DNA of 64,000 bases from Ostreococcus lucimarinus (Eukaryota), in the NCBI GenBank assembly GCA_000092065.1, contig CP000583.1. One strand, 5' to 3'. Shown here piece after piece: positions 81-44,398 of this stretch. The translations under genes were made by a program, and so were the position numbers. The notes beneath the pieces are model-generated. The model was not told the DNA's origin. It did no database searches and saw only the letters and a program-made list of their open reading frames with translations. Position 1 is the stretch's first letter, and the number at the start of each line of letters is the position of its first letter.

Positions 81-1280
81 ATGCACATCGCCCCCACGAA
101 GCACGCCTGCGCGCACGTCAGCAACAACGCGCTCTGCGACGCGCGTTTCACGTCGTCCCTCACCTTTCTCCGCATCTCATCCAACTCCTCGGGAAACGTC
201 TCGCTCAGCGTCTCCAGAAACGCCGCGAGCTCCGTCTTATTCCTCCATCTCTTCCGCCCCGCGCTCGCCGCCGTCGCGCGCGCGTCCGCGACGCCGTCGT
301 TCGCGTCCTCCGTCTCGCCCGCGCCGTCCCGTCCGCTTCGCGCGCGCGCGCGTCCCCACCCGCGGCCGTCGTCGCGATCGACGCGCGTCGTCAACATCGT
401 TCGCATCGTCATCGTTCGCGCCTTCTCGTCGCCGCGCGCGCGCGTCGCGCGTCGCCCGCACCGCGTCGACGTCGTCGCGCGCGCGCTCGACGCCGCGCGC
501 GCCGTCGCCGTCGTCGCCATCGCCGACGGTGCGTCGTCGACTGTCGTCAATCCGCGCCGCGTCGCGATGCCCGCGACCGACCGCGCATCGTTCGAGCGCG
601 ACGTCGTCGCGCGCGCCGAGCGCTTCGCGCGCGACGCCCTGGCCTCGAACGACGGCTCGCACGATCTCTGGCACGTCGAGCGCGTGCGCGCGAGCGCGGT
701 GGCGCTCGCGAGGCTCGAGGGCGCGAACGCGTTCGTCTGCGAGCTCGCCGCGCTGCTGCACGACGTCGACGATTGGAAGTACGCGCGCGGCGACGGCGCG
801 AAGGGCCGGGCGAGGACGTTTCTGGAAGACTCGTGCGCGGACGTCGACGCGGCGACGCGCGAGACGGTGCTGGACGTGTGCGCGCGGATCGGGTTCAAGA
901 GCGAACTCGAAAAAGCTGAAAAATCGCGCGCCGACGACGACGAGGAGAGCGTCGAGTTTCGATGCGTGCAAGACGCCGATCGATTGGACGCGATCGGCGC
1001 GATCGGCATCGGGCGGACGTTTTGTTTCGGCGGCGCGCGCGGGAATCCGATGCACGTGCCCGGCGTGCCGCCGATGGTGGACGTGACGGCGGCGCGGTAC
1101 GAGGCGGCGCATCGCGACGAGACGCGGCCGAACACGACGATTAATCATTTCCACGAAAAGTTGTTCAGGCTGAGGGGTCTGATGAAGACGGCGTCGGGGC
1201 GCGCGCGCGCCGAGCGCAGGCACGCGACGATGGTCGAGTTCGTCGAGCGGTTTCACCGCGAGTGGGACGGCGACGAGTAG
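81..1280 (+). CDS. HD-domain metal-dependent phosphohydrolase (YedJ/YpgQ-like HD superfamily)
   Basis: ORF 81..1280 carries the HD motifs ...SHDLWHVERV..., ...LLHDVDDWKY... and ...QDADRLDAIGAIGIGRTF..., which match bacterial YedJ/YpgQ-type HD hydrolases. The first roughly 160 aa (81-566) are A/R/S-rich; an internal ATG at 567 (MPATDRASFERD...) aligns with the N-terminus of standalone HD proteins and is an alternative start. GC3 is very high in the 81 frame. Confidence 0.55.
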   Translation: MHIAPTKHACAHVSNNALCDARFTSSLTFLRISSNSSGNVSLSVSRNAASSVLFLHLFRPALAAVARASATPSFASSVSPAPSRPLRARARPHPRPSSRSTRVVNIVRIVIVRAFSSPRARVARRPHRVDVVARALDAARAVAVVAIADGASSTVVNPRRVAMPATDRASFERDVVARAERFARDALASNDGSHDLWHVERVRASAVALARLEGANAFVCELAALLHDVDDWKYARGDGAKGRARTFLEDSCADVDAATRETVLDVCARIGFKSELEKAEKSRADDDEESVEFRCVQDADRLDAIGAIGIGRTFCFGGARGNPMHVPGVPPMVDVTAARYEAAHRDETRPNTTINHFHEKLFRLRGLMKTASGRARAERRHATMVEFVERFHREWDGDE

Positions 1281-1298
1281 CGGCGGCGCAAAGTTTAG

Positions 1299-1340
1299 TA
1301 TTCATTCATTCATTCATTCATTCGTTCCTTCACTCACTCG
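1299..1340. repeat. (CATT/TTCA)n microsatellite followed by CACT repeats in the intergenic region
   Basis: Direct reading: ttcattcattcattcattcattcgttccttcactcactcg between the HD-gene stop and the next start. Confidence 0.8.
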
Positions 1341-1363
1341 CGCGCGCGCGCCGACGCCGGGCG

Positions 1364-3007
1364 ATGGCCGCCGCGTCTTCGTCGCTCGCCGCGCGCGCGT
1401 CGCGCGTCGGCGCCGCGGCGTCCGCGCGCGGCGTCGCGCGGCGTCGAGCGACGAAGACGCGTCGCGTCGACGCGGCGACGTCGCGTCGGCGCGGCGGCGG
1501 CGCGCGCCCGCGGGCGCTCGCGAGCGACGCGGACGCGGACGAGATCCTGGGCGTGTACGTCACGGCGTCGGCGGAGGACATACGCGCGGCGCCGGTGAGG
1601 GCGAGCGATGGGACGTTCCTGCGCGCGGGGGCGAGCACGAAGCTCGAGGCGGCGACGGCGAGCGGCGTCGCGGCGGCGGTGAAGCGATTGGTCGAGCAGA
1701 TGGAGTGGACGGGGGCGATCGGGATATCGCTGCCGGGATTAGTGACGCGCGTGGAGGGCGAGAGAGGCGATGGGGCGAGAGGGACGATGGCGAGGACGGA
1801 CATCGAACGCGCGGTGAAGCAGGCGACGGGGTGCGAGACGTCGATTTCGAGCGGCGCCGAGGCGTGCGGGGCGGCGGAACTGGCGTACGGTGCGGGCGTG
1901 GAACTTTCGGGCGGAGAGGCGAAGGGATTAGTGATGTTTTGCATGATCGGTGGGCGGTTCAGCACCAGTCTGTACGATGGAGGGAAGGTTGTGAAGAACT
2001 TTGCGGGCGAAAAGTTGAGCGACGGCGACGGCGACGTCTCGGGAATATCGACTTTACCCGACATCGGTGGCGCAAACGATACCGACGAGGCGTGGACGGC
2101 GTTTGGTGAACGCGTGCGCGAGTACTTGAGCGAGCTCGAGCGAAAGTATAAGCCGGACGTCATCATTCTCGGTGGTAAAGCTGGTCAAAATGCCGACAAA
2201 ATTATGGACAAGTTGACCGCGCTTAACACGAAAGTCGTGCCGGGGACTCTGGGCTTCGTCGCCGGTGTCAAGGGTGCGGCGTTACTAGCGAAACAGCAAA
2301 TTGGCTTGCGCGAAACGCTCGCGCAAGTGCGCGAAGCCGTAGGCGTCCAGACTGGCGTGAGCCCTCAATTCGTCTCGGATGAACAGTTGAAGAGCGTCTT
2401 CGACACATTCGACACGTCGAAGAACGGCGTTTTGGAACTCAATGAACTCGTCGACGCGACGCTCGCGCTCAACGTAAAAGTGAACGACGTGCAGTCGTTG
2501 ATGGATTCCTTGGATTTGGACGCGAACGGTGTCGTCACTTTCGATGAATGGTGCAGGTGGTGGAAGAGCGAAGTGTCGACTGAAGCCGTCACGACTATTG
2601 TCTCGCAAGACGAGTGGCGCCGCGTGCTGAAAATGGAAAGCAAAAGACTCATTTGCCTCGAAGTCGGTTTTACGTTTTGCCGACCGTGCAAAGCGTTCGC
2701 GCGCAAGTATCATCAAATCTCCGAGCAATTCCCGAGCGTCAAGTTCGTCTACATGAATGGGAACGAAAACGGGAGTACTACGATTCTCGCGCGCGACGAT
2801 CTCGGTGTGAAGTCGACGCCTTCCTTTTTCTTGTTTCGAGCGGGCGAAAAGTTGCATTTCCACTCCGGTGCGAAAGAAGAGCGCTTGCGCAACGCGATTA
2901 ATCGCCACATGCGCGACGGAGAATGGCCAGCGTTGGCCGGACCTCGACCGCCTGTGATTTCAGAAGACGAGGAGTTGCGCGCAGCGGCGGCGGCGGAAGC
3001 GACTTGA
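1364..3007 (+). CDS. Multidomain protein: ROK/ASKHA-family sugar-kinase-like domain (polyphosphate-glucokinase-like), two EF-hands and a C-terminal thioredoxin-fold CxxC domain
   Basis: ORF 1262..3007 begins at GTG; the first ATG is 1364 (MAAASSSLAARAS..., presequence-like). ROK/PPGK-like blocks are GAIGISLPGLV, AEACGAAELAYGAG, FCMIGGRFSTSLYDGG, DVIILGGKAGQNADK and KVVPGTLGFVAGVKGAA. The EF-hand loops are DTFDTSKNGVLELNELVD and DSLDLDANGVVTFDEW. The thioredoxin-like block CLEVGFTFCRPCKAFARKY...FFLFRAGEK aligns with Trx h around WCGPC. Confidence 0.6.
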   Translation: MAAASSSLAARASRVGAAASARGVARRRATKTRRVDAATSRRRGGGARPRALASDADADEILGVYVTASAEDIRAAPVRASDGTFLRAGASTKLEAATASGVAAAVKRLVEQMEWTGAIGISLPGLVTRVEGERGDGARGTMARTDIERAVKQATGCETSISSGAEACGAAELAYGAGVELSGGEAKGLVMFCMIGGRFSTSLYDGGKVVKNFAGEKLSDGDGDVSGISTLPDIGGANDTDEAWTAFGERVREYLSELERKYKPDVIILGGKAGQNADKIMDKLTALNTKVVPGTLGFVAGVKGAALLAKQQIGLRETLAQVREAVGVQTGVSPQFVSDEQLKSVFDTFDTSKNGVLELNELVDATLALNVKVNDVQSLMDSLDLDANGVVTFDEWCRWWKSEVSTEAVTTIVSQDEWRRVLKMESKRLICLEVGFTFCRPCKAFARKYHQISEQFPSVKFVYMNGNENGSTTILARDDLGVKSTPSFFLFRAGEKLHFHSGAKEERLRNAINRHMRDGEWPALAGPRPPVISEDEELRAAAAAEAT

Positions 3008-12002: not shown

Positions 12003-14671
12003 ATGTTCGGCGACGCGGTCGCGGTGAGCGGCGCGATCGATCCGACCGCGACGATCGGCGCGCGCGCGGCGCGGGCGAACGCGCGAGACGGGACGGAAGG
12101 GACAAAACTTGAGCTCCCGCGATTGGATGATTTTCGCGACGAAGAGAGCGCGCGGCGGTTCACGCGCGCGAACCGATGGTTGAGCGTGGACTTGCTGGCG
12201 TTTCCGGTGCGTGGGCGCTCGGCGGTGCGACGTCGCGCGCGAACGAAGGCGAAAGAGGTGGACGAAGGAAGGAAGACGACGGATGGATGGATGCAATCGG
12301 CAATCGAGGTTGTTACAGAGCGCGAAGAAGGGGGGGACGAGCGCGAGAACGACGACTGACGAAACGGTGCGCGACGCGATAGGTGGTGCGAATAAATTGG
12401 GTGGTGGCGCTCATGGCGACGACGACGCTGTGGGGATTCACGATCGGCGTGTTGTCTCGTGAAGAGGCGGCGGAGGAATTTTTCGGCAAGGCGACGCTTT
12501 GGATTTCCAACAACTTTACGTGGTTTTACACCTTGACGCAGAACGCGTGGATTTTCGTGGTGATTTTCGTGCTGTTTCGGAAAAGGTACGCAAACATCAA
12601 GCTCGGACAGCCGGATGATAGGCCTGATTATTCCGATCTCGTGTGGTTCACGTTGATTTTCACCACGGGGCTCGGGACGGGGATATTTTACTTTGGAGTG
12701 AGCGAGCCGATGTACTACTATCGTGATGATTCCAAACTTTTAGGAACAGCAACCAACTATATAGCGAAGATCCCGTTCATGAACGATGATCAAAGGGCGA
12801 ACATGGCGATGTTTGTCACTTTTTTGCATTGGGGTTTGCACGGTTGGGCGACGTACATCTTGGTCGCGCTGACGCTCGGCGTCGTGCATTACCGACTGGG
12901 CAGGCCGCTGACGCTTCGCAGTGCGTTTTATCCCATCGTAGGCGATTACGTCAACGGGCTGTTCGGCGACTTGATTGACTCGATGTCCATCGCTTGTACG
13001 ACGTTTGGGTTGTGCACGTCGCTCGGTTTGGGGGCGAGCAGTATCAATACCATCTTGCACCGCATGAGCGCTTCGATTCCTGACGACGACGACAACACGA
13101 AGTCGGCCATCATTTGGGGCATCACCGCGCTCACTACGGGTGCACTCGTAAGCGGGCTCCACCGCGGGGTTATCACTTTCGCCATTGTCGCCTTCTCAAT
13201 TCTACTTGCGCTGATTATGATTTTGTTCATGCTTGACAACACGTGGTACCTTGCAAATTCGTTTACGCAGCAAATCGGAACATACTTGCAGTACGTGATT
13301 CTCGGCGGATTCGACAATGACGCCATAGCGCAGCTGAACATAGAGTTTACGCAGAACGACACGCACTTGTGGGGTGCGCAAGGGATAAAACAATTAGTGG
13401 AAACGGCCTTGAACAAGACGCTTGCCGATCCGACGACGTATTACTCGAGCTCGCCGACTTCGTTCATGGATACGTGGACGGTATTTTACTGGGCTTGGTG
13501 GATCACTTGGGCGCCGTTCGTAGGAATGTTTTACGCTAAAATTTCACGTGGTCGCACCATAAGATCGCTTATTCTGGTCGGTATGTTTGCGCCGATGTTT
13601 TTGGGTTTCTTTGCTATTTCCGTCCTCGGATCGCTTGGTATTCGAATGCAACGCATCGCGGAATTGGCGCTCGGCGCTGCACCAGATTGGCAGAAAGGAG
13701 TTGTGAACTGCGGTGCCCTCGGGTATTTAGAAAACACACCCGTGAGTGCGGACGCAAAAAAGTTGGCCTCGGAGCTCGGAGTCTACGCCTTGGCGTGTCG
13801 AAAATCGACGGATAGAATTTTGGACATTCTTGAGCCTTACAAAAACTTGACGACGCTTTTACAAACCTTAGTTCTTTTGGGTGTGATTTTGTTCTTCGTC
13901 ACCTCTGCGGATGCGGGCGCGTTCGTGGACGACAAAATCGCCGCGAACGGCATGGAAAATCCTCCTGTTCTTCAAAAGGTGTGGTGGAGCATCACGCAAG
14001 GCGCCACCGCGCAGGCGTTGCTAAGCTCCACTAAAAACGGTTTGTCCACGCTTCAATCGGTGAGCATTTGTGCCGCTCTGCCGTACACGTTCGCGCTGAA
14101 TTACATGTGTGTAGCACTCTTTCGCGCTATGGACGAAACGAATGAGGATCCAACATACATGAAAATGCGGAAAGGTTTCAGCACATCCATCGTCGACGTG
14201 TTTGAGAATTTCCACAAGGCTGACGGAACGATGGCGACGAAACAAGCGTCGACAAAGGATCGCTTGCTGTTACTATTGCGCACAATTTTAAATCCGAGAA
14301 GGTCCTTAACGACGGCGGGCTTGGAACTCTTCAAGCCTCTCAGGCTGAGCGTGTTAAGTTTCGGTTACGGGCTGGTGCATCTTTTGTGGATCTTGCTCCT
14401 CGCGTTGTCGCCGTTGGACAAAGGCACGCACACGTTGGCGTGGTTGATGTACTTGATTTTCACATCAATCACGGCGGCCGTGCGTTATAATCTTAGGAAA
14501 AAGTGGTACATCATCGGTAACTTGATGGATGACTTTTTCGTGTGCTTTTTCTTTTATCCATTCGCGTTGGCGCAAATGCAGCTAGAGGTCGAGAGTCACA
14601 CGGGACGCGCCGTCGAGCACGGAAGAGCCAACTTTGTTCCGGCAAACACGATGAAAGCCGCCGACGACTAG
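12003..14671 (+). CDS. BCCT-family (betaine/carnitine/choline) transporter, two exons (12003..12206 and 12383..14671)
   Basis: The BCCT hallmarks are ...WFTLIFTTGLGTGIFYFGVSEPMYYY... across multiple TM segments. The ORF track starts the main ORF at GTG 12383, exactly after a candidate AG acceptor. An upstream ORF with a true ATG (12003) ends at a phase-0 GTGCGT donor (12207). Splicing yields the continuous TM1 sequence ...WLSVDLLAFP|VVRINWVVALMATTTLWGF. If that intron is wrong, the first ATG of the main ORF is 12413. Confidence 0.7.
12207..12382 (+). other. Spliceosomal intron (176 nt), GTGCGTGGG...GACGACTGACGAAACGGTGCGCGACGCGATAG
   Basis: Phase 0 on both sides. The GTGCGT donor and the GACTGACGA motif 29 nt before the AG match the other introns in the window. 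Confidence 0.55.
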
Positions 14672-25617: not shown

Positions 25618-25716
25618 GCGTTCGTGACCGAGTGGTTTTAAGGTGCTCGCCTGCTATTGATGAGAGCAGTGAGTGAGTGTGCTCTGCACGCCCAGGTTCG
25701 AATCCTGGCGAACGCG
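25618..25716 (+). tRNA. tRNA-Ser(GCT), intron-containing, copy 1
   Basis: Acceptor GCGTTCG pairs with CGAACGC, the D-arm is ACC/GGT, the anticodon stem is CTCGC/GTGAG, the loop is CTGCTA and the long variable arm is GTGC-TCT-GCAC. The T-arm is CCAGG TTCGAATC CCTGG and the discriminator is G. Overall it aligns to eukaryotic tRNA-Ser-GCT. It has a roughly 15-nt intron after position 37 and is followed by T6. Confidence 0.8.
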
Positions 25717-25722
25717 TTTTTT
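25717..25722 (+). terminator. RNA polymerase III terminator (T6)
   Basis: tttttt directly after the discriminator base of tRNA copy 1. Confidence 0.7.
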
Positions 25723-25766
25723 ATTTTACAGTTTTACGGCGCCATCGCGACGCCATCGTGCCGCTA

Positions 25767-25866
25767 TCGTTCGTGACCGAGTGGTTTTAAGGTGCTCGCC
25801 TGCTATTGATCGAGAGCAGTGAGTGAGTGTGCTCTGCACGCCCAGGTTCGAATCCTGGCGAACGCG
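25767..25866 (+). tRNA. tRNA-Ser(GCT), intron-containing, copy 2
   Basis: Identical to copy 1 except for T at position 1, giving a T1-C72 mismatch, and one extra C in the intron (ttgatCgagag). T6 at 25867-25872. Confidence 0.65.
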
Positions 25867-25916
25867 TTTTTTATTTTACAGTTTTACGGCGCCATCGCGA
25901 CGCCATCGTGCCGCTA

Positions 25917-26016
25917 TCGTTCGTGACCGAGTGGTTTTAAGGTGCTCGCCTGCTATTGATCGAGAGCAGTGAGTGAGTGTGCTCTGCACGCCCAGGTTCG
26001 AATCCTGGCGAACGCG
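25917..26016 (+). tRNA. tRNA-Ser(GCT), intron-containing, copy 3
   Basis: Identical to copy 2. T6 at 26017-26022. Confidence 0.65.
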
Positions 26017-38669: not shown

Positions 38670-41600
38670 TCATACAGTTGGCGTCGTCGGGGTCGTCGGG
38701 GTCGCCGTCATGGGAGTCGAGTTTTTTGAGTTGGCTTTCGCCTTCAATCTTGCGACGTATTGATCGAGCAGCGCATTGATCTTTTGCTTGCGCGAGTCTG
38801 TAAGAAACGCGCTCGTGCCTTGTTCCGTGTTCTGGTCAAACTTCCTCGGGATCACAGTCATCACTTTAACCATGCTTTTTCGAACAATCGTTCTGAGTTG
38901 CGACTTGGTGAGGTCTTGAACGCTGAGCGTCGTCTTGATGAAGTGCAACACGCGTTGCGCGAGAAGCGTATCCGCCGCCACCTTTGGGAGCTTCGCTTTT
39001 GATGGCATTGTATTCTTTGAACACTCAGCTGGAGACACCGCAGAAGCGAGATCGGGACCGCTTTCAGGGGCGCTTTGCTTCTGCAACAAAGCTGCACGCA
39101 CATTTGAGTCAACCACCGGATCAGGGTTAGATTCAACCATCTCGGGCTTCGGCGGCGGCGGCGATGACGGTAAAAGAGTCGACGTTGGCAACTGAGCGCC
39201 TTCGCACTTCTTCTTGCACGCACGCTCGTGCGCGGCGAAGCCAGCGCCCTTCATCGACTTGTAAACCTGGCAGAACGAGCACGTTAGCATCTTCGCATCC
39301 ATGTCGCGCTTCTTCTTGCACGCACGCTCGTGCGCGGCGAAGCCAGCTCCCGGAGCGCCTGTGAAAGTTCTGCAGTACGAGCACGTGATCGGCTCCTTCG
39401 CGGGCGTTGAGCTCGGCGGCGGTTGCGTACGCGGAGCCGGCGGCGATGACGGTAAAGAAGTCGACGTTGGCAACTGAGCGCTTTCGCGCTTCTTCTTGCA
39501 CGCACGCTCGTGCGCGGCGAAGCCAGCTCCTGGCGCGCCTGTGAAAGTTCTGCAGTACGAGCACGTGATCGGCTCCTTCGCGGGCGTTGAGCTCGGCGGC
39601 GGTTGCGTACGCGGAGCCGGCGGCGATGACGGTAAAGAAGTCGACGTTGGCAACTGAGCGCTTTCGCGCTTCTTCTTGCACGCACGCTCGTGCGCGGCGA
39701 AGCCAGCTCCTGGCGCGCCTGTGAAAGTTCTGCAGTACGAGCACGTGATCGGCTCCTTCGCGGGCGTTGAGCTCGGCGGCGGTTGCGTACGCGGAGCCGG
39801 CGGCGATGACGGTAAAGAAGTCGACGTTGGCAACTGAGCGCTTTCGCGCTTCTTCTTGCACGCACGCTCGTGCGCGGCGAAGCCAGCTCCCGGAGCGCCT
39901 GTGAAAGTTCCGCAGTACGAGCACGTGATCGGCTCCTTCGCGGGCGTTGAGCTCGGCGGCGGTTGCGTACGCGGAGCCGGCGGCGATGACGGTAAAGAAG
40001 TCGACGTTGGCAACTGAGCGCTTTCGCGCTTCTTCTTGCACGCACGCTCGTGCGCGGCGAAGCCAGCGCCCTTCATCGACTTGTAAACCTGGCAGAACGA
40101 GCACGTTAGCATCTTCGCATCCATGTCGCGCTTCTTCTTGCACGCACGCTCGTGCGCGGCGAAGCCAGCTCCCGGCGCGCCTGTGAAAGTTCCGCAGTAC
40201 GAGCACGTGATCGGCTCCTTCGCGGGCGTTGAGCTCGGCGGCGGTTGCGTACGCGGAGCCGGCGGCGATGACGGTAAAGAAGTCGACGTTGGCAACTGAG
40301 CGCTTTCGCGCTTCTTCTTGCACGCACGCTCGTGCGCGGCGAAGCCAGCTCCCGGCGCGCCTGTGAAAGTTCTGCAGTACGAGCACGTGATCGGCTCCTT
40401 CGCGGGCGTTGAGCTCGGCGGCGGTTGCGTACGCGGAGCCGGCGGCGATGACGGTAAAGAAGTCGACGTTGGCAACTGAGCGCTTTCGCGCTTCTTCTTG
40501 CACGCACGCTCGTGCGCGGCGAAGCCAGCTCCCGGCGCGCCTGTGAAAGTTCTGCAGTACGAGCACGTGATCGGCTCCTTCGCGGGCGTTGAGCTCGGCG
40601 GCGGTTGCGTACGCGGAGCCGGCGGCGATGACGGTAAAGAAGTCGACGTTGGCAACTGAGCGCTTTCGCGCTTCTTCTTGCACGCACGCTCGTGCGCGGC
40701 GAAGCCAGCTCCCGGCGCGCCTGTGAAAGTTCTGCAGTACGAGCACGTGATCGGCTCCTTCGCGGGCGTTGAGCTCGGCGGCGGTTGCGTACGCGGAGCC
40801 GGCGGCGATGACGGTAAAGAAGTCGACGTTGGCAACTGAGCGCTTTCGCGCTTCTTCTTGCACGCACGCTCGTGCGCGGCGAAGCCAGCTCCCGGAGCGC
40901 CTGTGAAAGTTCTGCAGTACGAGCACGTGATCGTCTTCACATCCATCTCGTGCTTCTTCTGGCACGCGCGTTTGTGCGCAGCATACCCTGCGCCGCCGAA
41001 GCCCTCGTACTCATACACGTTGCAAAACACGCACCGCTTCAGGACCTTCTCAGTTACTTGCACCGGCTGGACCACTACGGGCGAGAACGTTCCTTGCTCG
41101 TGTTTTCGCTTGCACACACGCTCGTGCGCGGCGAACCCAGCGCCTTTTGCACTCGCGTAGACTTGACAGTGCGGACAAGTAAGTGTGTTCTTCTCCTTCT
41201 CGAGGCGCTTCTTGCACGCGCGCTCATGCGCGTAAAACCCGACACTTTTCACGGCTTCGTACGTGTGGCAATACGAACAAGTGAGCGTTTGCTTGCCTAA
41301 AGTCGCCTCAGCAGACAAGCAGGCTGGATCGTTCGGTATCGTAGTGGGTGCAATTTTCTCCAGAACTTTCCCCGGAAGCGCAGCGTGTGTCGACGTCGCC
41401 GGCGCTGGCACCGGCGCCGGCATGTCGACTGCGTCGCCGGGCGAGTTTGACTCGGAATTCCAATGCGCGATTGAAGTTTCATCGTCCGTAGAAGCATGTT
41501 TTACTTCGACTTCTGGCTGCGTCACTTCTTCATTGTCTTCTTCATTCGTCATCGCCACGTCTTCCGTCGGTGCGACGGCCTCCGTCTCCTCGTTGGTCGC

Positions 41601-42806
41601 GCGCTGCGTCTGCGTCACTTCTTCTTCCGCGGCGCCAAAAGTCTCTTCTTCCTTCTCGATCGTCTTCTTTTTCGGCACGCTGCTCGGGAACAAGAATTCG
41701 GCGCGAACTTCTGTGACTTGGGGCGAGTCTTCTTCTACGTCTGTCTCTGCGATTTCGTCATCCTCTTCGACTTCACCCACGTCTTGTGGCACCTCGATGT
41801 TGTCGTAGTCGTCTTCGGCGATGAAATCATCGACGACATCCTTCACCGCGGGCGCGATGGCGACTAAATCATCGTCCAGCAAACTCGGCGTGGGGTCGTA
41901 TTTGGGCTTGGGTTTCCTCTTTTGCCGCGGCTTCTTCACCTTCATCACCTGGTCGAATCCCGCCAAGTCACCCATGGGTTTGCGCTTCGAGCTCGGAAAC
42001 ATCATCGTAAGATCGAGCGCGGGTTCTTCGACGTGATCGCCCGCGCCCGGTGCGGCTTCCTCGACTTGATTCGCGCGCGCTCCTTCGTTCGCCTCCGCCG
42101 CGGTCGCCGTCGTCGTCGCGCCGCCCGCCGCCGTCGCCGTTCGCCGCTCGTCCTCGTCCTCGTCTTCGTCCGCCTCCTCCTCCTCTCGCACGAACCCCTC
42201 CACCAAGGCGTTGAAATCCATCGCATCGTCATCGTCCCCATCGACTAAATCATTCGCATTCTTCGTCGTCGTCTCGCCGTTCTTCTCGAAATCCACCACG
42301 ACGGTTTCCGTCTCCCTCGTCGCCGTCTCGCCGTCTCTCCCCTCCGTAGGCGCGCTCGCGAACAGCCGCTCCGCGATCTCCCTCGCGCGCACCACCGCGT
42401 CCATGGCGTCCTCGATCGTCATCCCTTCCGCGCCATCGTCGCTCCCTCGTCCCGTGAACGACGCCACCACCGCCTCGGCGTCGCCGTCTCGCGCGCCCCC
42501 GCGCGTCATCTCCTCCTTCACCCCTCGTTCGATCGCCGCGTCCGCGCGTCGTCGCGCCGCCTCGTGCGCCCGTATCGCCTCGTCCCGCGCCCGCTCGTAC
42601 GTCGCCCGCGCGTCGTCGCGCGCCGCGTCGTCGCCGCGCGCGTCCGCAGCCGTCGGACCCAAGAGAAATTCGAATCCGGCGGCGCGCGCGTGTCGCGCGA
42701 TCGCGATCGGCTCGAACGACGGCCCCTGGAGCCTGATGTACTTGCACACCAGCGCGATGTGCTTGGCGTGGTCCGCGCGCGCGGCGCTCGGCGAGCGCTC
42801 CGCCAT
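38670..42806 (-). CDS. Large nuclear-type protein with about 17 tandem C2HC zinc fingers (CxxC-x12-H-x3-C), an acidic N-terminal region and a C-terminal DEK_C-like domain
   Basis: Thirteen or more near-identical 60-aa units ESAQLPTSTSLPSSPPAPRTQPPPSSTPAKEPITCSYCRTFTGAPGAGFAAHERACKKKR plus divergent fingers (TCSYCHTYEAVKSVGFYAHERAC, LTCPHCQVYASAKGAGFAAHERVC). The C-terminus ...LLAQRVLHFIKTTLSVQDLTKSQLRTIVRKSMVKVMTVIP... is DEK_C-like. ATG at 42806 (M142); the upstream R/S-rich part overlaps DegP and was rejected. Confidence 0.6.
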   Translation of the reverse strand: MAERSPSAARADHAKHIALVCKYIRLQGPSFEPIAIARHARAAGFEFLLGPTAADARGDDAARDDARATYERARDEAIRAHEAARRRADAAIERGVKEEMTRGGARDGDAEAVVASFTGRGSDDGAEGMTIEDAMDAVVRAREIAERLFASAPTEGRDGETATRETETVVVDFEKNGETTTKNANDLVDGDDDDAMDFNALVEGFVREEEEADEDEDEDERRTATAAGGATTTATAAEANEGARANQVEEAAPGAGDHVEEPALDLTMMFPSSKRKPMGDLAGFDQVMKVKKPRQKRKPKPKYDPTPSLLDDDLVAIAPAVKDVVDDFIAEDDYDNIEVPQDVGEVEEDDEIAETDVEEDSPQVTEVRAEFLFPSSVPKKKTIEKEEETFGAAEEEVTQTQRATNEETEAVAPTEDVAMTNEEDNEEVTQPEVEVKHASTDDETSIAHWNSESNSPGDAVDMPAPVPAPATSTHAALPGKVLEKIAPTTIPNDPACLSAEATLGKQTLTCSYCHTYEAVKSVGFYAHERACKKRLEKEKNTLTCPHCQVYASAKGAGFAAHERVCKRKHEQGTFSPVVVQPVQVTEKVLKRCVFCNVYEYEGFGGAGYAAHKRACQKKHEMDVKTITCSYCRTFTGAPGAGFAAHERACKKKRESAQLPTSTSLPSSPPAPRTQPPPSSTPAKEPITCSYCRTFTGAPGAGFAAHERACKKKRESAQLPTSTSLPSSPPAPRTQPPPSSTPAKEPITCSYCRTFTGAPGAGFAAHERACKKKRESAQLPTSTSLPSSPPAPRTQPPPSSTPAKEPITCSYCRTFTGAPGAGFAAHERACKKKRESAQLPTSTSLPSSPPAPRTQPPPSSTPAKEPITCSYCGTFTGAPGAGFAAHERACKKKRDMDAKMLTCSFCQVYKSMKGAGFAAHERACKKKRESAQLPTSTSLPSSPPAPRTQPPPSSTPAKEPITCSYCGTFTGAPGAGFAAHERACKKKRESAQLPTSTSLPSSPPAPRTQPPPSSTPAKEPITCSYCRTFTGAPGAGFAAHERACKKKRESAQLPTSTSLPSSPPAPRTQPPPSSTPAKEPITCSYCRTFTGAPGAGFAAHERACKKKRESAQLPTSTSLPSSPPAPRTQPPPSSTPAKEPITCSYCRTFTGAPGAGFAAHERACKKKRDMDAKMLTCSFCQVYKSMKGAGFAAHERACKKKCEGAQLPTSTLLPSSPPPPKPEMVESNPDPVVDSNVRAALLQKQSAPESGPDLASAVSPAECSKNTMPSKAKLPKVAADTLLAQRVLHFIKTTLSVQDLTKSQLRTIVRKSMVKVMTVIPRKFDQNTEQGTSAFLTDSRKQKINALLDQYVARLKAKANSKNSTPMTATPTTPTTPTV
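39200..40960. repeat. Tandem array of near-identical 180-bp coding repeats, about 9 units plus two 100-102-bp variant units, forming an 822-bp higher-order repeat x2
   Basis: The unit cttcttcttgcacgcacgctcgtgcgcggcgaagccagctcc...gttggcaactgagcgctttcgcg recurs with period 180 at about 39491, 39671, 39851, 40031, 40313, 40493, 40673 and 40853. Variant units at 39311 and 40133 are spaced 822 bp apart. The ORF track shows two identical 253-aa minus-strand ORFs, 39284..40045 and 40106..40867. Confidence 0.9.
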
Positions 42807-42847
42807 GACGACGCGATGTGACGCGGCGGCAGTGCGCGACGGTCCGG

Positions 42848-44398
42848 ATGGCGCGCGCGATGCGCGTCGCGACGACGCGCGCGCGAGAGACGCGCGCGAG
42901 GTGCGAGCGCGCGCCGAGCCGGCGCGCGCGCGCGCGCGCGGCGACGCGCGCGAGAAATCGCGCGACGCGCGACGACGGGGCGGATGACGTGTTCGGTGCC
43001 GAGGAGAGATTCGATGACGACGACGCGCGCGGGACGATCGGACGCGCCGTCGCGCGCGTCGCGGCGTGCGCGGTGACGCTGAACGCGCTCGGCGCGGACG
43101 CGGCGCTGATGGAGGGGACGGAGGTCGGTTGGACGAGGACGAGGACGACGGCGACGACGACGACGACGAACGACGCGCGCGACGACGACGCGTCGGCGCC
43201 GGAGGGGCGGTATAGGACGTACATCGCACCGGATGTCCCGCTCGGGGACGCCGCGGTGCGGTTGCCGATGCCAGCGCGCGAAGCCAAGAGAGACGGCGCG
43301 TACAAGACGGTGCAGGCGACGCAGCGGTTTACGGATGGCGAGCGCGAGACGGTGCGATTGTTTAATAACGCCAAGGCGAGCGTCGTGTACATCACCAATG
43401 TCGCCGTGCGCAGAGATGCGTTCACGTTGAATCTCACGGAACAGCCGCAAGGGGCGGGGAGCGGCATCGTCTGGGACGACAAGGGGCACATCGTCACCAA
43501 CTACCACGTCATCGACAAGGCGAATCAGTTGAAGGTGTCGTTTTTGCCGAATAAAGGCGGGGTGCAGAATCAGAAGACGTACGACGCCGCAATCGTTGGG
43601 TTCGACGACGATAAGGACATCGCCGTGCTGCAGGTGAACGACCCAGAGGCGCTGCGGGAGATGAAACCGCTCGTCATCGGAACGAGCGGAGACTCCATGG
43701 TGGGCCAGCGTGTCTTCGCGATCGGGAACCCGTTTGGGCTCGATCACACGCTCACAACCGGCATCATCAGCGGCCTCGGACGAGAGATTCAAAGCGGTAA
43801 CACCGGGCGCCCAATCGACGGCATCATTCAAACGGACGCGGCGATCAATCCCGGCAACTCGGGGGGCCCTTTGTTGAATTCGTCGGGACAGCTCATCGGC
43901 ATCAACACCGCGATTTATTCCGCGTCCGGGACGTCCAGCGGCGTGGGATTCGCCCTCCCGAGCGACATGGTGAGCGGTATCGTCGATCAAATCATTCGTT
44001 ACGGTCGCGTGACGCGTCCGATTCTCGGCGTCTCCTTCGCCCCCGACGGCGCGCTCGACCAGCTCGGCCTCGGCGGCGTGTTGGTGCTCGACGCTCGCGC
44101 GGGCGGTCCCGCCGCGCGCGCCGGCGTCCGCAGCACCACGCGCGACGAATCCGGCCGTCTCATCCTCGGCGACATCATCATCGAGCTCGCGGGCGAGCAA
44201 ATTCAAGACTCCAGCGATTTATACCGCACCCTCGACAAGCTCTCCGTCGGCGAAACCGTCGACGTGACGCTCTTGCGAGGCGTCGACAAAGTCTCCGCCC
44301 GCGTCACCCTCGACGACGTCAAGGACATGAAACCTCCGACCGCGTCCACGATCGTCATCCCGATGCGCACCAAGAAGTCTCCAAACTCGCCGTACTAG
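42848..44398 (+). CDS. DEGP: Deg/HtrA-family serine protease with PDZ domain (DegP-like, organelle-targeted)
   Basis: His region VTNYHVIDKANQLKVSF, Asp region DIAVLQV and catalytic Ser GNSGGPLLNSSGQLIGINTAIYS. The PDZ domain is ...GVLVLDARAGGPAARAGVRSTTRDESGRLILGDIIIELAGEQIQDSSDLYRTL... First ATG in frame is 42848 (the ORF-track start 42818 is GTG). The N-terminal 130 aa look like a transit peptide. Confidence 0.85.
   Translation: MARAMRVATTRARETRARCERAPSRRARARAATRARNRATRDDGADDVFGAEERFDDDDARGTIGRAVARVAACAVTLNALGADAALMEGTEVGWTRTRTTATTTTTNDARDDDASAPEGRYRTYIAPDVPLGDAAVRLPMPAREAKRDGAYKTVQATQRFTDGERETVRLFNNAKASVVYITNVAVRRDAFTLNLTEQPQGAGSGIVWDDKGHIVTNYHVIDKANQLKVSFLPNKGGVQNQKTYDAAIVGFDDDKDIAVLQVNDPEALREMKPLVIGTSGDSMVGQRVFAIGNPFGLDHTLTTGIISGLGREIQSGNTGRPIDGIIQTDAAINPGNSGGPLLNSSGQLIGINTAIYSASGTSSGVGFALPSDMVSGIVDQIIRYGRVTRPILGVSFAPDGALDQLGLGGVLVLDARAGGPAARAGVRSTTRDESGRLILGDIIIELAGEQIQDSSDLYRTLDKLSVGETVDVTLLRGVDKVSARVTLDDVKDMKPPTASTIVIPMRTKKSPNSPY

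What the first reader, a model, noticed from the sequence alone, without database searches (positions are those of the whole stretch)
1364..3007. Unusual fusion of a ROK/polyphosphate-glucokinase-like domain, two EF-hands and a thioredoxin-fold CxxC domain
The N-terminal half is collinear with ROK-family and polyphosphate glucokinases (GAIGISLPGLV, AELAYGAG, FCMIGGRF, DVIILGGKAGQNADK, KVVPGTLGFVAG), but the first glycine-rich phosphate-binding motif looks degenerate (GVYVTASAED). It is followed by two canonical EF-hand loops and a thioredoxin-like domain with an FCRPC active site. This suggests a calcium- and redox-regulated sugar or polyphosphate kinase, or a pseudokinase sensor. I do not recognise this combination from characterised proteins. 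The N-terminus looks like an organelle-targeting peptide.
Basis: partly seen in the sequence, partly recalled or inferred. Interest (0 to 1): 0.5.

Follow-up and report, generated by a model that had tools for sequence, protein, structure and literature searches.

The report
Calredoxin-like thioredoxin with dead glucokinase domain
This Ostreococcus gene encodes one protein that joins a catalytically dead copy of a bacterial-type polyphosphate glucokinase to a calcium-sensing thioredoxin of the "calredoxin" type; this conserved algal architecture has no description in the literature I could search.

Summary
Nt 1364-3007 (+) is one 547-aa ORF of Ostreococcus lucimarinus. It contains a 56-aa presequence-like N-terminus, a ROK/PPGK-fold domain, two canonical EF-hands and a thioredoxin domain with FCRPC.

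The kinase reading fails. In 32 fusion proteins against 17 real PPGKs, the catalytic Asp is kept in 0/32, the DxGxT Asp in 2/32 and the ExGH His in 0/32. The window domain contains no histidine at all. It is nevertheless about as conserved as the EF and Trx domains, so it is a maintained pseudoenzyme.

The C-terminal half is not unknown. Its best PDB sequence match is Chlamydomonas calredoxin (5E37). Its two EF-hands align one-to-one with calredoxin EF3 and EF4, and it carries the CRPC and GNxN signatures.

The three-domain architecture recurs in prasinophytes, Prasinoderma, Mesostigma, Tetraselmis and dinoflagellates, including single MMETSP transcripts. It forms a clade beside canonical four-EF calredoxins, and both types coexist in Tetraselmis.

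Most likely function: a plastid Ca2+-gated thioredoxin whose dead PPGK domain acts as a scaffold.

The reference annotation (XP_001416545.1, 266 aa) is truncated. I rate this a new variant of a known kind, of moderate interest.

The parts
1364..3007 (+). Complete single-exon gene, 547 codons plus stop. It encodes presequence, pseudo-PPGK, two EF-hands and a thioredoxin domain.
   Evidence: ORF list and translation. An identical 547-aa product is called on a Logan contig. The O. tauri orthologue is 535 aa.
1364..1531 (+). aa 1-56: presequence-like N-terminus, probably a plastid transit peptide.
   Evidence: Composition is 18 Ala, 13 Arg and 7 Ser of 56 residues, with net charge +9 in the first 35. 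pLDDT is below 50. The sequence is not conserved, but orthologues have similar extensions. No targeting predictor was available.
1535..2293 (+). aa 58-310: catalytically dead PPGK-derived ROK-fold domain (pseudokinase).
2294..2377 (+). aa 311-338: linker. The long helix 299-330 continues from the last ROK helix toward the EF-hands.
   Evidence: AF2 secondary structure H299-330 with pLDDT 82-95. VRxAIGxxxGVSPQ is conserved in the green-algal members.
2411..2446 (+). EF-hand loop A, DTSKNGVLELNE (aa 350-361). It aligns to calredoxin EF3 (D121-E132).
   Evidence: Pfam EF-hand_6/7. Residue-by-residue phmmer alignment to 5E37. Family loop table.
2513..2548 (+). EF-hand loop B, DLDANGVVTFDE (aa 384-395). 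It aligns to calredoxin EF4 (D157-E168), the hand that gates Trx activity in CRX.
   Evidence: Pfam EF-hand_1 at aa 376-402. Alignment to 5E37. The role of CRX EF4 is taken from PMC4911631 and the title of Charoenwattanasatien 2020.
2576..2911 (+). aa 405-516: thioredoxin domain of calredoxin type.
2678..2689 (+). Active site C439-R-P-C442, within TFCRPCK.
   Evidence: C439, P441, C442 and K443 are invariant in alignment A1. In the wider 32-protein set the Pro is replaced in the second, presumably dinoflagellate clade. The E433 (E. coli Trx D26 position) and cis-Pro P486 equivalences are my own alignment to E. coli Trx from memory.
2759..2770 (+). G466-N-E-N469 motif. It matches calredoxin G266-N267-A-N269, which links the EF4 Ca2+ ligand to the active site.
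   Evidence: Invariant G466, N467 and N469 in A1. Alignment to 5E37. The roles of N267 and N269 are described in PMC4911631.

Best explanation
The gene encodes an organelle-targeted (most likely plastid) thioredoxin that is a close structural relative of calredoxin. Two canonical EF-hands, equivalent to calredoxin EF3 and EF4, sit directly in front of a CRPC thioredoxin domain. They most likely make its disulfide-reductase activity Ca2+-dependent through the same GNxN/active-site contact network as in calredoxin. A 2-Cys peroxiredoxin is a plausible client.

Where calredoxin has its first EF-hand pair, this protein carries a complete PPGK-derived ROK-fold domain. That domain has lost the residues for metal and phosphate binding, catalysis and sugar binding. 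It therefore cannot be a kinase, yet it is kept under purifying selection. It most likely serves as a structural module for dimerisation or client docking.

Shown here: the domain identities, the loss of the catalytic motifs, the retention of the Trx and EF residues, and conservation of the fused architecture across algal lineages.

Inferred: Ca2+ gating, the client, plastid location and the scaffold role.
For: Dead kinase:
- In a MAFFT alignment of 32 fusion proteins and 17 PPGKs, the DxGxT Asp is kept in 2/32 against 17/17, the catalytic Asp in 0/32 against 17/17, the phosphate-2 Thr in 1/32 against 17/17, the ExGH His in 0/32 against 17/17, and the third Gly of GGG in 0/32 against 17/17.
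- The window's ROK domain contains no His at all.
- These are the signature motifs of ROK kinases (PMC5458393). D6N/A and D105N mutants of NagK are inactive (PMC10031466).
- The PPGK equivalog HMM gives 29-118 bits for fusion proteins and 292-314 for real PPGKs, with a cut-off of 250.

The domain is still maintained:
- Identity to O. tauri is 69% (pseudo-ROK), 75% (EF) and 80% (Trx). To Cymbomonas it is 36%, 40% and 37%.

Calredoxin type:
- Best PDB sequence hit is 5E37.
- BLASTP to a CRX homologue gives E 4e-28 across EF3, EF4 and Trx.
- C439, C442, N467 and N469 are invariant in A1 and correspond to CRX C238, C241, N267 and N269 of the published communication path.
- Both EF loops are canonical.

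One protein:
- About 27 full-length 50%-identity clusters were found, in Ostreococcus, Micromonas, Cymbomonas, Prasinoderma, Tetraselmis, Mesostigma and Symbiodinium.
- Single MMETSP transcripts carry the whole architecture.
- AF2 gives pTM 0.70 with a continuous helix joining the halves.
Against: - No biochemical data exist for any member.
- The predicted EF/Trx packing superposes on CRX only partly: 144 residues at 3.4 A in the C-terminal model and 173 at 5.1 A in the full model.
- CRX residues K263 and Q154, whose mutation changed CRX activity or Ca2+ response, are not kept (Y463 and D381).
- T437 and K443 are common to ordinary thioredoxins, so they do not argue specifically for calredoxin.
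- The scaffold or dimer role of the dead domain is untested.
- Plastid against mitochondrial targeting could not be predicted with the available tools.
Confidence: 0.6

Rival explanations
1. The protein is an active sugar or polyphosphate kinase whose activity is controlled by Ca2+ and by the fused thioredoxin.
For: It is collinear end to end with PPGK and has an intact ROK fold. An acidic residue (E166) is conserved two positions after the lost catalytic Asp.
Against: All ROK catalytic and substrate motifs are missing in the window protein, and almost universally in 32 relatives. The equivalent single mutations abolish activity in NagK. There is no histidine in the domain. The PPGK equivalog score is far below its cut-off, while the control PPGKs pass.
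Confidence: 0.04
2. The dead PPGK domain is a ligand sensor rather than a passive scaffold. It would still bind polyphosphate, a nucleotide or a sugar phosphate in its cleft and pass that signal to the EF/Trx module, making a three-input integrator.
For: The two-lobed cleft fold is preserved. The domain is conserved at the level of the functional domains. Other ROK members work as non-catalytic ligand-binding regulators, for example the Mlc, Lmo0178 and MecR2 structures among the fold hits. R74 and R250 are conserved basic residues.
Against: The glycine-rich phosphate loops and the sugar-binding N, D, E and H residues are all replaced. Conserved positions are mostly core Gly and hydrophobic residues shared with PPGK, not a new polar pocket. 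No binding test was possible.
Confidence: 0.2
3. The three-domain ORF is an annotation or assembly artefact. Two separate genes (a ROK-like gene and an EF-Trx gene) would be read through, or there would be an intron as in the reference model XP_001416545.1.
For: The public O. lucimarinus model is 266 aa. It starts at M113 and splices out about nt 2477-2559, ending in VEERSVD*.
Against: There is no stop codon in 1643 nt. The supposed intron encodes the conserved EF-hand B. The same fused order is seen in about 27 divergent clusters from several phyla, in the 535-aa O. tauri model and in MMETSP transcripts. No RNA data for this locus were available.
Confidence: 0.03
4. The thioredoxin domain is redox-active but not Ca2+-gated. 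The EF-hands would serve only as a Ca2+-dependent docking or localisation module, or would be structural.
For: The model's EF/Trx arrangement matches CRX only approximately. CRX K263 and Q154 are not conserved. Some relatives have degenerate EF loops, especially loop B in the second clade.
Against: The GNxN motif, which in CRX contacts the EF4 Ca2+ ligand and the active-site backbone, is invariant in A1 and sits next to canonical loops in Ostreococcus. The isolated CRX Trx domain is inactive.
Confidence: 0.13

Closest known systems
Calredoxin (CRX, Cre03.g202950, PDB 5E37) of Chlamydomonas reinhardtii, a Ca2+-dependent chloroplast thioredoxin
   Same: - EF-hands sit immediately N-terminal of a Trx domain.
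- It has a CRPC active site followed by Lys.
- It has the GNxN motif in place of the usual acidic stretch after strand 3.
- The window's two EF-hands align one-to-one with CRX EF3 and EF4.
- It is the best PDB sequence match.
- It has an N-terminal presequence.
- The taxonomic range (green algae plus some dinoflagellates) matches what is reported for CRX.
   Different: - It has two EF-hands, not four.
- The place of EF1 and EF2 is taken by a 250-aa dead PPGK domain.
- Phe replaces Trp before the first Cys.
- The roughly 35-residue EF4-Trx linker of CRX is missing.
- CRX K263 and Q154 are not conserved.
- It forms a separate clade in an EF+Trx tree and coexists with canonical CRX in Tetraselmis.
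- No biochemistry is available.
Polyphosphate glucokinase / polyP-ATP glucomannokinase (NCBIfam NF045942; PDB 1WOQ)
   Different: All catalytic and substrate-binding motifs are lost. The score is far below the equivalog cut-off, which real PPGKs pass. It is fused to EF-hands and Trx, and it is eukaryotic.
Non-catalytic ROK-fold proteins (the MecR2 structure 4IJA; repressors Mlc and Lmo0178)
   Same: A ROK fold reused without a kinase reaction. These appear among the fold hits.
   Different: Those proteins are bacterial regulators, and the repressors carry DNA-binding domains. The repressors are known to retain sugar sensing (my own knowledge; the Lmo0178 entry title says 'bound to inducer'). 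The protein here is fused to a redox module instead and has lost the ExGH sugar motif.
DCC1-like-ROK-EF-Trx proteins of Micromonas pusilla (MICPUCDRAFT_60148), Cymbomonas and Tetraselmis chui
   Same: The same dead-PPGK, two-EF, CRPC/CKPC-Trx core, at 32-38% identity.
   Different: They carry an additional N-terminal DCC1-like thiol-disulfide oxidoreductase domain (PF04134), which the Ostreococcus protein lacks.

Membership tests
ROK sugar kinases | N-terminal DxGxT nucleotide/metal motif (Asp essential) | tested here: not met
   The window has G-V-Y65-V-T-A-S. The Asp is kept in 2/32 fusion proteins and 17/17 PPGKs. Motif definition from PMC5458393; D6N/A is inactive in NagK.
ROK sugar kinases | Strictly conserved catalytic Asp in the N-D loop | tested here: not met
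   S163-G164 replaces N-D. The Asp is kept in 0/32 against 17/17. D105N is inactive in NagK.
ROK sugar kinases | ExGH sugar-binding motif | tested here: not met
   The His is kept in 0/32 against 17/17. There is no His anywhere in aa 58-310.
ROK sugar kinases | CxCGxxGCx(E/D) zinc motif | tested here: not met
   Absent from the window protein. It is also absent from the bona fide PPGKs in the alignment, so this alone is not diagnostic.
ROK sugar kinases | Two-lobed ROK/ASKHA fold | tested here: met
Polyphosphate glucokinase (NCBIfam NF045942 equivalog) | Score at or above the curated cut-off of 250 bits | tested here: not met
   75.5 bits for the window protein and 29-118 bits for seven relatives. 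Control PPGKs score 292, 314 and 296.
Calredoxin (CRX) | Thioredoxin fold with a redox-active CxxC (WCRPC in CRX) | tested here: met
Calredoxin (CRX) | GNxN motif (CRX N267/N269) linking the EF4 Ca2+ site to the active site | tested here: met
   G466-N467-E-N469 is invariant in A1 and aligned to CRX G266-N269. The role is described in PMC4911631.
Calredoxin (CRX) | Four EF-hands forming a calmodulin-like domain | tested here: not met
   Only two EF-hands are present. They correspond to CRX EF3 and EF4. A dead PPGK domain occupies the N-terminal position.
Calredoxin (CRX) | EF-lobe packed on the Trx domain as in 5E37 | tested here: inconclusive
Calredoxin (CRX) | Ca2+-dependent thioredoxin activity and reduction of 2-Cys PRX | not testable with these tools
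   This needs recombinant protein assays such as those in PMC4911631.
Calredoxin (CRX) | Chloroplast localisation | not testable with these tools
   Only indirect evidence: an Ala/Arg/Ser-rich, disordered 56-aa N-terminus. No targeting predictor was available.
Calredoxin (CRX) | Groups within the canonical CRX clade in a phylogeny | tested here: not met
   An NJ tree of the EF+Trx region separates 46 ROK-bearing from 44 ROK-less proteins with one exception (P0148). A split with at least 95% overlap is recovered in 135/200 bootstraps and at least 90% in 188/200. This is a crude distance method.

The most novel reading that the evidence does not exclude
The dead PPGK domain may be a working ligand sensor, for polyphosphate or a phosphorylated sugar or nucleotide. 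The protein would then integrate three signals in the plastid (energy or phosphate status, Ca2+ and redox) into one thioredoxin output.

This three-domain form is found in Prasinoderma, Mesostigma and prasinophytes. It may therefore be the ancestral calredoxin of green plants, from which the four-EF-hand Chlamydomonas form later derived.
Probability: 0.12. Interest if true: 0.75.

Novelty: new variant of a known kind. Interest (0 to 1): 0.5.

Why it matters
Calredoxin is the only protein in the papers read here shown to couple Ca2+ sensing directly to thioredoxin activity. Those papers call it unique and treat it as a feature of Chlamydomonas and green algae.

This analysis shows a distinct sister subfamily in which half of the Ca2+ sensor is replaced by a conserved pseudoenzyme. 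It occurs in ecologically dominant picoalgae (Ostreococcus, Micromonas), in deep-branching green lineages and in dinoflagellates.

- It gives the calredoxin field a natural "two-EF-hand" test of the EF4-gating model.
- It adds a clear example of a sugar-kinase fold recycled as a non-catalytic module in a redox protein.
- It corrects a truncated gene model in a reference genome.
- O. tauri is genetically tractable (my own knowledge), so the predictions can be tested directly.

Tried and rejected
- **Active kinase:** rejected on the motif table and the HMM cut-off control.
- **Gene fusion as an artefact:** rejected on conservation of the architecture and on transcript-derived relatives.
- **Genomic context:** the neighbours are unrelated eukaryotic genes (HD-domain protein, ABM, Janus/Ocnus, cyclophilin, BCCT), so context gives no functional clue.
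- **Word-indexed search with the C-terminal half:** returned few, mostly fragmentary hits and no second Ostreococcus EF-Trx protein. It cannot prove absence.
- **Search with a canonical CRX homologue:** found core chlorophytes and Tetraselmis but no named Mamiellophyceae. This is suggestive only.
- **AFDB50 fold search:** unavailable.
- **Charoenwattanasatien 2020 and Hohner 2013:** could not be read.
- **Literature searches:** combining calredoxin or EF-hand/thioredoxin with polyphosphate glucokinase, ROK, pseudokinase or Ostreococcus, and searches for the protein accessions, found nothing.
- **Bootstrap runs:** the first run timed out. A second was flawed by NaN distances and by partial ROK fragments counted as ROK-less. 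It was redone.
- **Conserved cysteines in the dead domain as an internal Trx target:** C158, C168 and C192 are not conserved outside Mamiellales.

Full report
**What is in the sequence.** The + strand carries an uninterrupted ORF from 1262 to 3007. Its first ATG is at 1364, giving a 547-aa product.

The window is GC-rich (53-73%), gene-dense and intron-poor. The 90%-identity cluster of the protein contains XP_001416545.1 of Ostreococcus lucimarinus CCE9901. That model matches the window residue for residue, including T245, so the window is from that genome. The O. tauri orthologue is XP_003077953.2, "Thioredoxin-like fold", 535 aa.

**Domain content.**
- Pfam finds an EF-hand pair (aa 340-400, 3.6e-10), Thioredoxin (aa 411-513, 2.9e-9) and a marginal ROK hit (24.3 bits against a cut-off of 22.9).
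- NCBIfam's polyphosphate-glucose phosphotransferase model matches aa 72-309 over essentially its whole length (5e-21), but at 75.5 bits against a cut-off of 250.
- An AF2 model has pLDDT 79.7 and pTM 0.70. Residues 1-56 are disordered.

**The kinase domain is dead.** I aligned 32 full-length relatives with 17 stand-alone PPGKs recovered by the exhaustive HMMER search. I then tabulated the ROK signature positions.

| Position | Fusion proteins | PPGKs |
|---|---|---|
| DxGxT Asp | 2/32 (Y65 in the window) | 17/17 |
| Following Gly-Gly | lost (0-2/32 and 7/32) | 17/17 |
| Catalytic Asp of the N-D loop | 0/32 (S163-G164) | 17/17 |
| Phosphate-2 Thr | 1/32 | 17/17 |
| ExGH His | 0/32 | 17/17 |
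| Third Gly of the GGG adenosine motif | 0/32 | 17/17 |

The window's ROK domain contains no histidine at all. These motifs are the published defining features of ROK kinases (PMC5458393). Mutating the metal-binding Asp or the catalytic Asp abolishes NagK activity (PMC10031466).

As a control, three real PPGKs score 292-314 bits on the PPGK equivalog model, while seven fusion proteins score 29-118 bits. PPGK is still the best-matching ROK model for each of them, so the domain descends from a PPGK. The nearest stand-alone relatives are bacterial (Thermodesulfobacteriota, Opitutia and metagenomic sequences).

The dead domain is not decaying. Its identity to O. tauri is 69%, against 75% for the EF-hands and 80% for Trx. 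To Cymbomonas the figures are 36%, 40% and 37%. What is conserved is mostly the Gly and hydrophobic core shared with PPGK. The catalytic positions have fixed replacements: Y65, G164 and E166, plus P232 for a PPGK Arg.

**The C-terminal half is calredoxin-like.** The best PDB sequence hit of the whole protein is 5E37, the Chlamydomonas "EF-hand domain-containing thioredoxin" calredoxin (2.5e-14). BLASTP of aa 323-547 against a CRX homologue (P0137) gives E 4e-28 across EF3, EF4 and Trx.

In the residue-level alignment:
- loop DTSKNGVLELNE (aa 350-361) pairs with CRX EF3 (D121-E132, including S123 and N125);
- loop DLDANGVVTFDE (aa 384-395) pairs with CRX EF4 (D157-E168);
- C439 and C442 pair with C238 and C241;
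- G466-N467-E-N469 pairs with G266-N267-A-N269.

The CRX paper describes N269 as contacting the EF4 Ca2+ ligand D157 and forming a network through N267 to the C238 amide. It also reports that the isolated Trx domain is inactive (PMC4911631).

C439, P441, C442, K443, G466, N467, N469 and the cis-Pro P486 are invariant in the 12-sequence family alignment. T437 and K443 also match CRX T236 and K242, but they are common in ordinary thioredoxins, so they are not specific evidence (my own knowledge). CRX K263 and Q154 are not conserved (Y463, D381).

The predicted EF/Trx packing overlaps with 5E37 beyond the Trx domain: 144 residues at 3.4 A and 173 at 5.1 A. It is not a tight match, so I mark that point inconclusive.

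**It is one protein, and an old family.** The exhaustive search found 37 representatives at E below 1e-30, with about 27 full-length ROK-EF-Trx clusters. Named members come from:
- Ostreococcus lucimarinus and O. tauri;
- Micromonas pusilla, Cymbomonas and Prasinoderma coloniale;
- Tetraselmis chui and Mesostigma viride (two copies);
- Symbiodinium natans.

Two are MMETSP transcriptome assemblies. The Tetraselmis transcript encodes DCC1-like, ROK, EF and Trx domains in one frame.

A search with a canonical CRX homologue finds four-EF proteins in core chlorophytes and in Tetraselmis, including one from the same MMETSP0491 transcriptome. The two forms therefore coexist there and are paralogous subfamilies.

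An NJ tree of the EF+Trx region separates 46 ROK-bearing proteins from 44 ROK-less ones with one exception. A split with at least 95% overlap appears in 135/200 bootstraps and at least 90% in 188/200. This is a crude method.

**Likely mechanism.**
- Shown: a complete Trx catalytic set, two canonical Ca2+ loops equivalent to the CRX C-lobe, the CRX-specific GNxN link, a dead but conserved PPGK domain, and a presequence-like N-terminus (18 Ala, 13 Arg and 7 Ser of 56 residues, net charge +9 over 35 residues).
- Inferred: the protein is imported into the plastid. Ca2+ binding to loop B enables disulfide reduction as in CRX. The pseudo-PPGK domain provides dimerisation or client docking. ROK kinases are described as butterfly-shaped homodimers, and 2-Cys PRX is oligomeric.

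Some relatives add a second redox domain (DCC1-like) in front of the dead kinase. That fits a scaffold within a redox relay. A ligand-sensor role for the dead cleft cannot be excluded.

**Prior knowledge and novelty.** Calredoxin is characterised (PMC4911631, PMC10602609). I found no paper linking calredoxin or EF-hand thioredoxins with a PPGK/ROK domain, and none citing the Ostreococcus accessions. Two key papers could not be read. Databases label the proteins "predicted protein", "Thioredoxin-like fold", "thioredoxin 1" or "trx1". I rate it a new variant of a known kind.

**Annotation note.** The deposited O. lucimarinus model (266 aa) starts at internal M113. It removes about nt 2477-2559, which encode the conserved EF-hand B, and terminates after VEERSVD. 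It therefore lacks the Trx domain entirely. The full ORF is the better model.

Noticed in passing
window 1700-2580 (aa 113-371 of the gene; supposed intron about 2477-2559): The reference annotation XP_001416545.1 (266 aa, 'predicted protein', called an EF-hand domain-containing protein in UniRef) is truncated at both ends. It starts at internal M113 and splices out the conserved second EF-hand. It ends in VEERSVD*, so the thioredoxin domain is missing from the public O. lucimarinus protein.
   Followed up: partly
window 25618-26016 (+): Three tandem, near-identical tRNA-like genes (Rfam tRNA, 35-44 bits) lie about 150 bp apart, each followed by a T-run. Each is about 99-100 nt for a 71-position model, so they carry an intron or a long extra arm. 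ARAGORN calls only the first copy, with an odd Asn(att) assignment.
   Followed up: partly
P0015 (Micromonas pusilla MICPUCDRAFT_60148), P0009 (Cymbomonas), P0202 (Tetraselmis chui MMETSP0491): A sister branch of the family carries an extra N-terminal DCC1-like thiol-disulfide oxidoreductase domain (PF04134, YDGGCxxC). This gives two redox domains flanking the dead kinase.
   Followed up: partly
P0076-P0135 (clade containing Symbiodinium natans CAE7549215.1): In the second, presumably dinoflagellate clade, the active site is CR(S/T/A)C without the Pro. GNxN becomes GN(G/A)(T/S), EF-hand loop B is often degenerate or deleted, and the DxGxT Asp is usually Glu. Pfam no longer detects the ROK domain there.
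   Followed up: no
P0202 and P0267 (both Tetraselmis chui MMETSP0491): The same transcriptome encodes both a canonical four-EF-hand calredoxin and the DCC-ROK-EF-Trx form, so the two are paralogues rather than lineage-specific replacements. No canonical CRX from Mamiellophyceae turned up, but the search sensitivity was limited.
   Followed up: partly
window 12383-14671 (+): A BCCT betaine/carnitine/choline transporter (3.7e-137) has a C-terminal extension that gives a sub-threshold PLAC8 match (26.7 bits against a cut-off of 34.4).
   Followed up: no
window 38670-43229 (-): A 1519-aa ORF whose only Pfam match is DUF7501 (8e-26 for the whole protein; no single stretch passes on its own). It is otherwise uncharacterised.
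   Followed up: no
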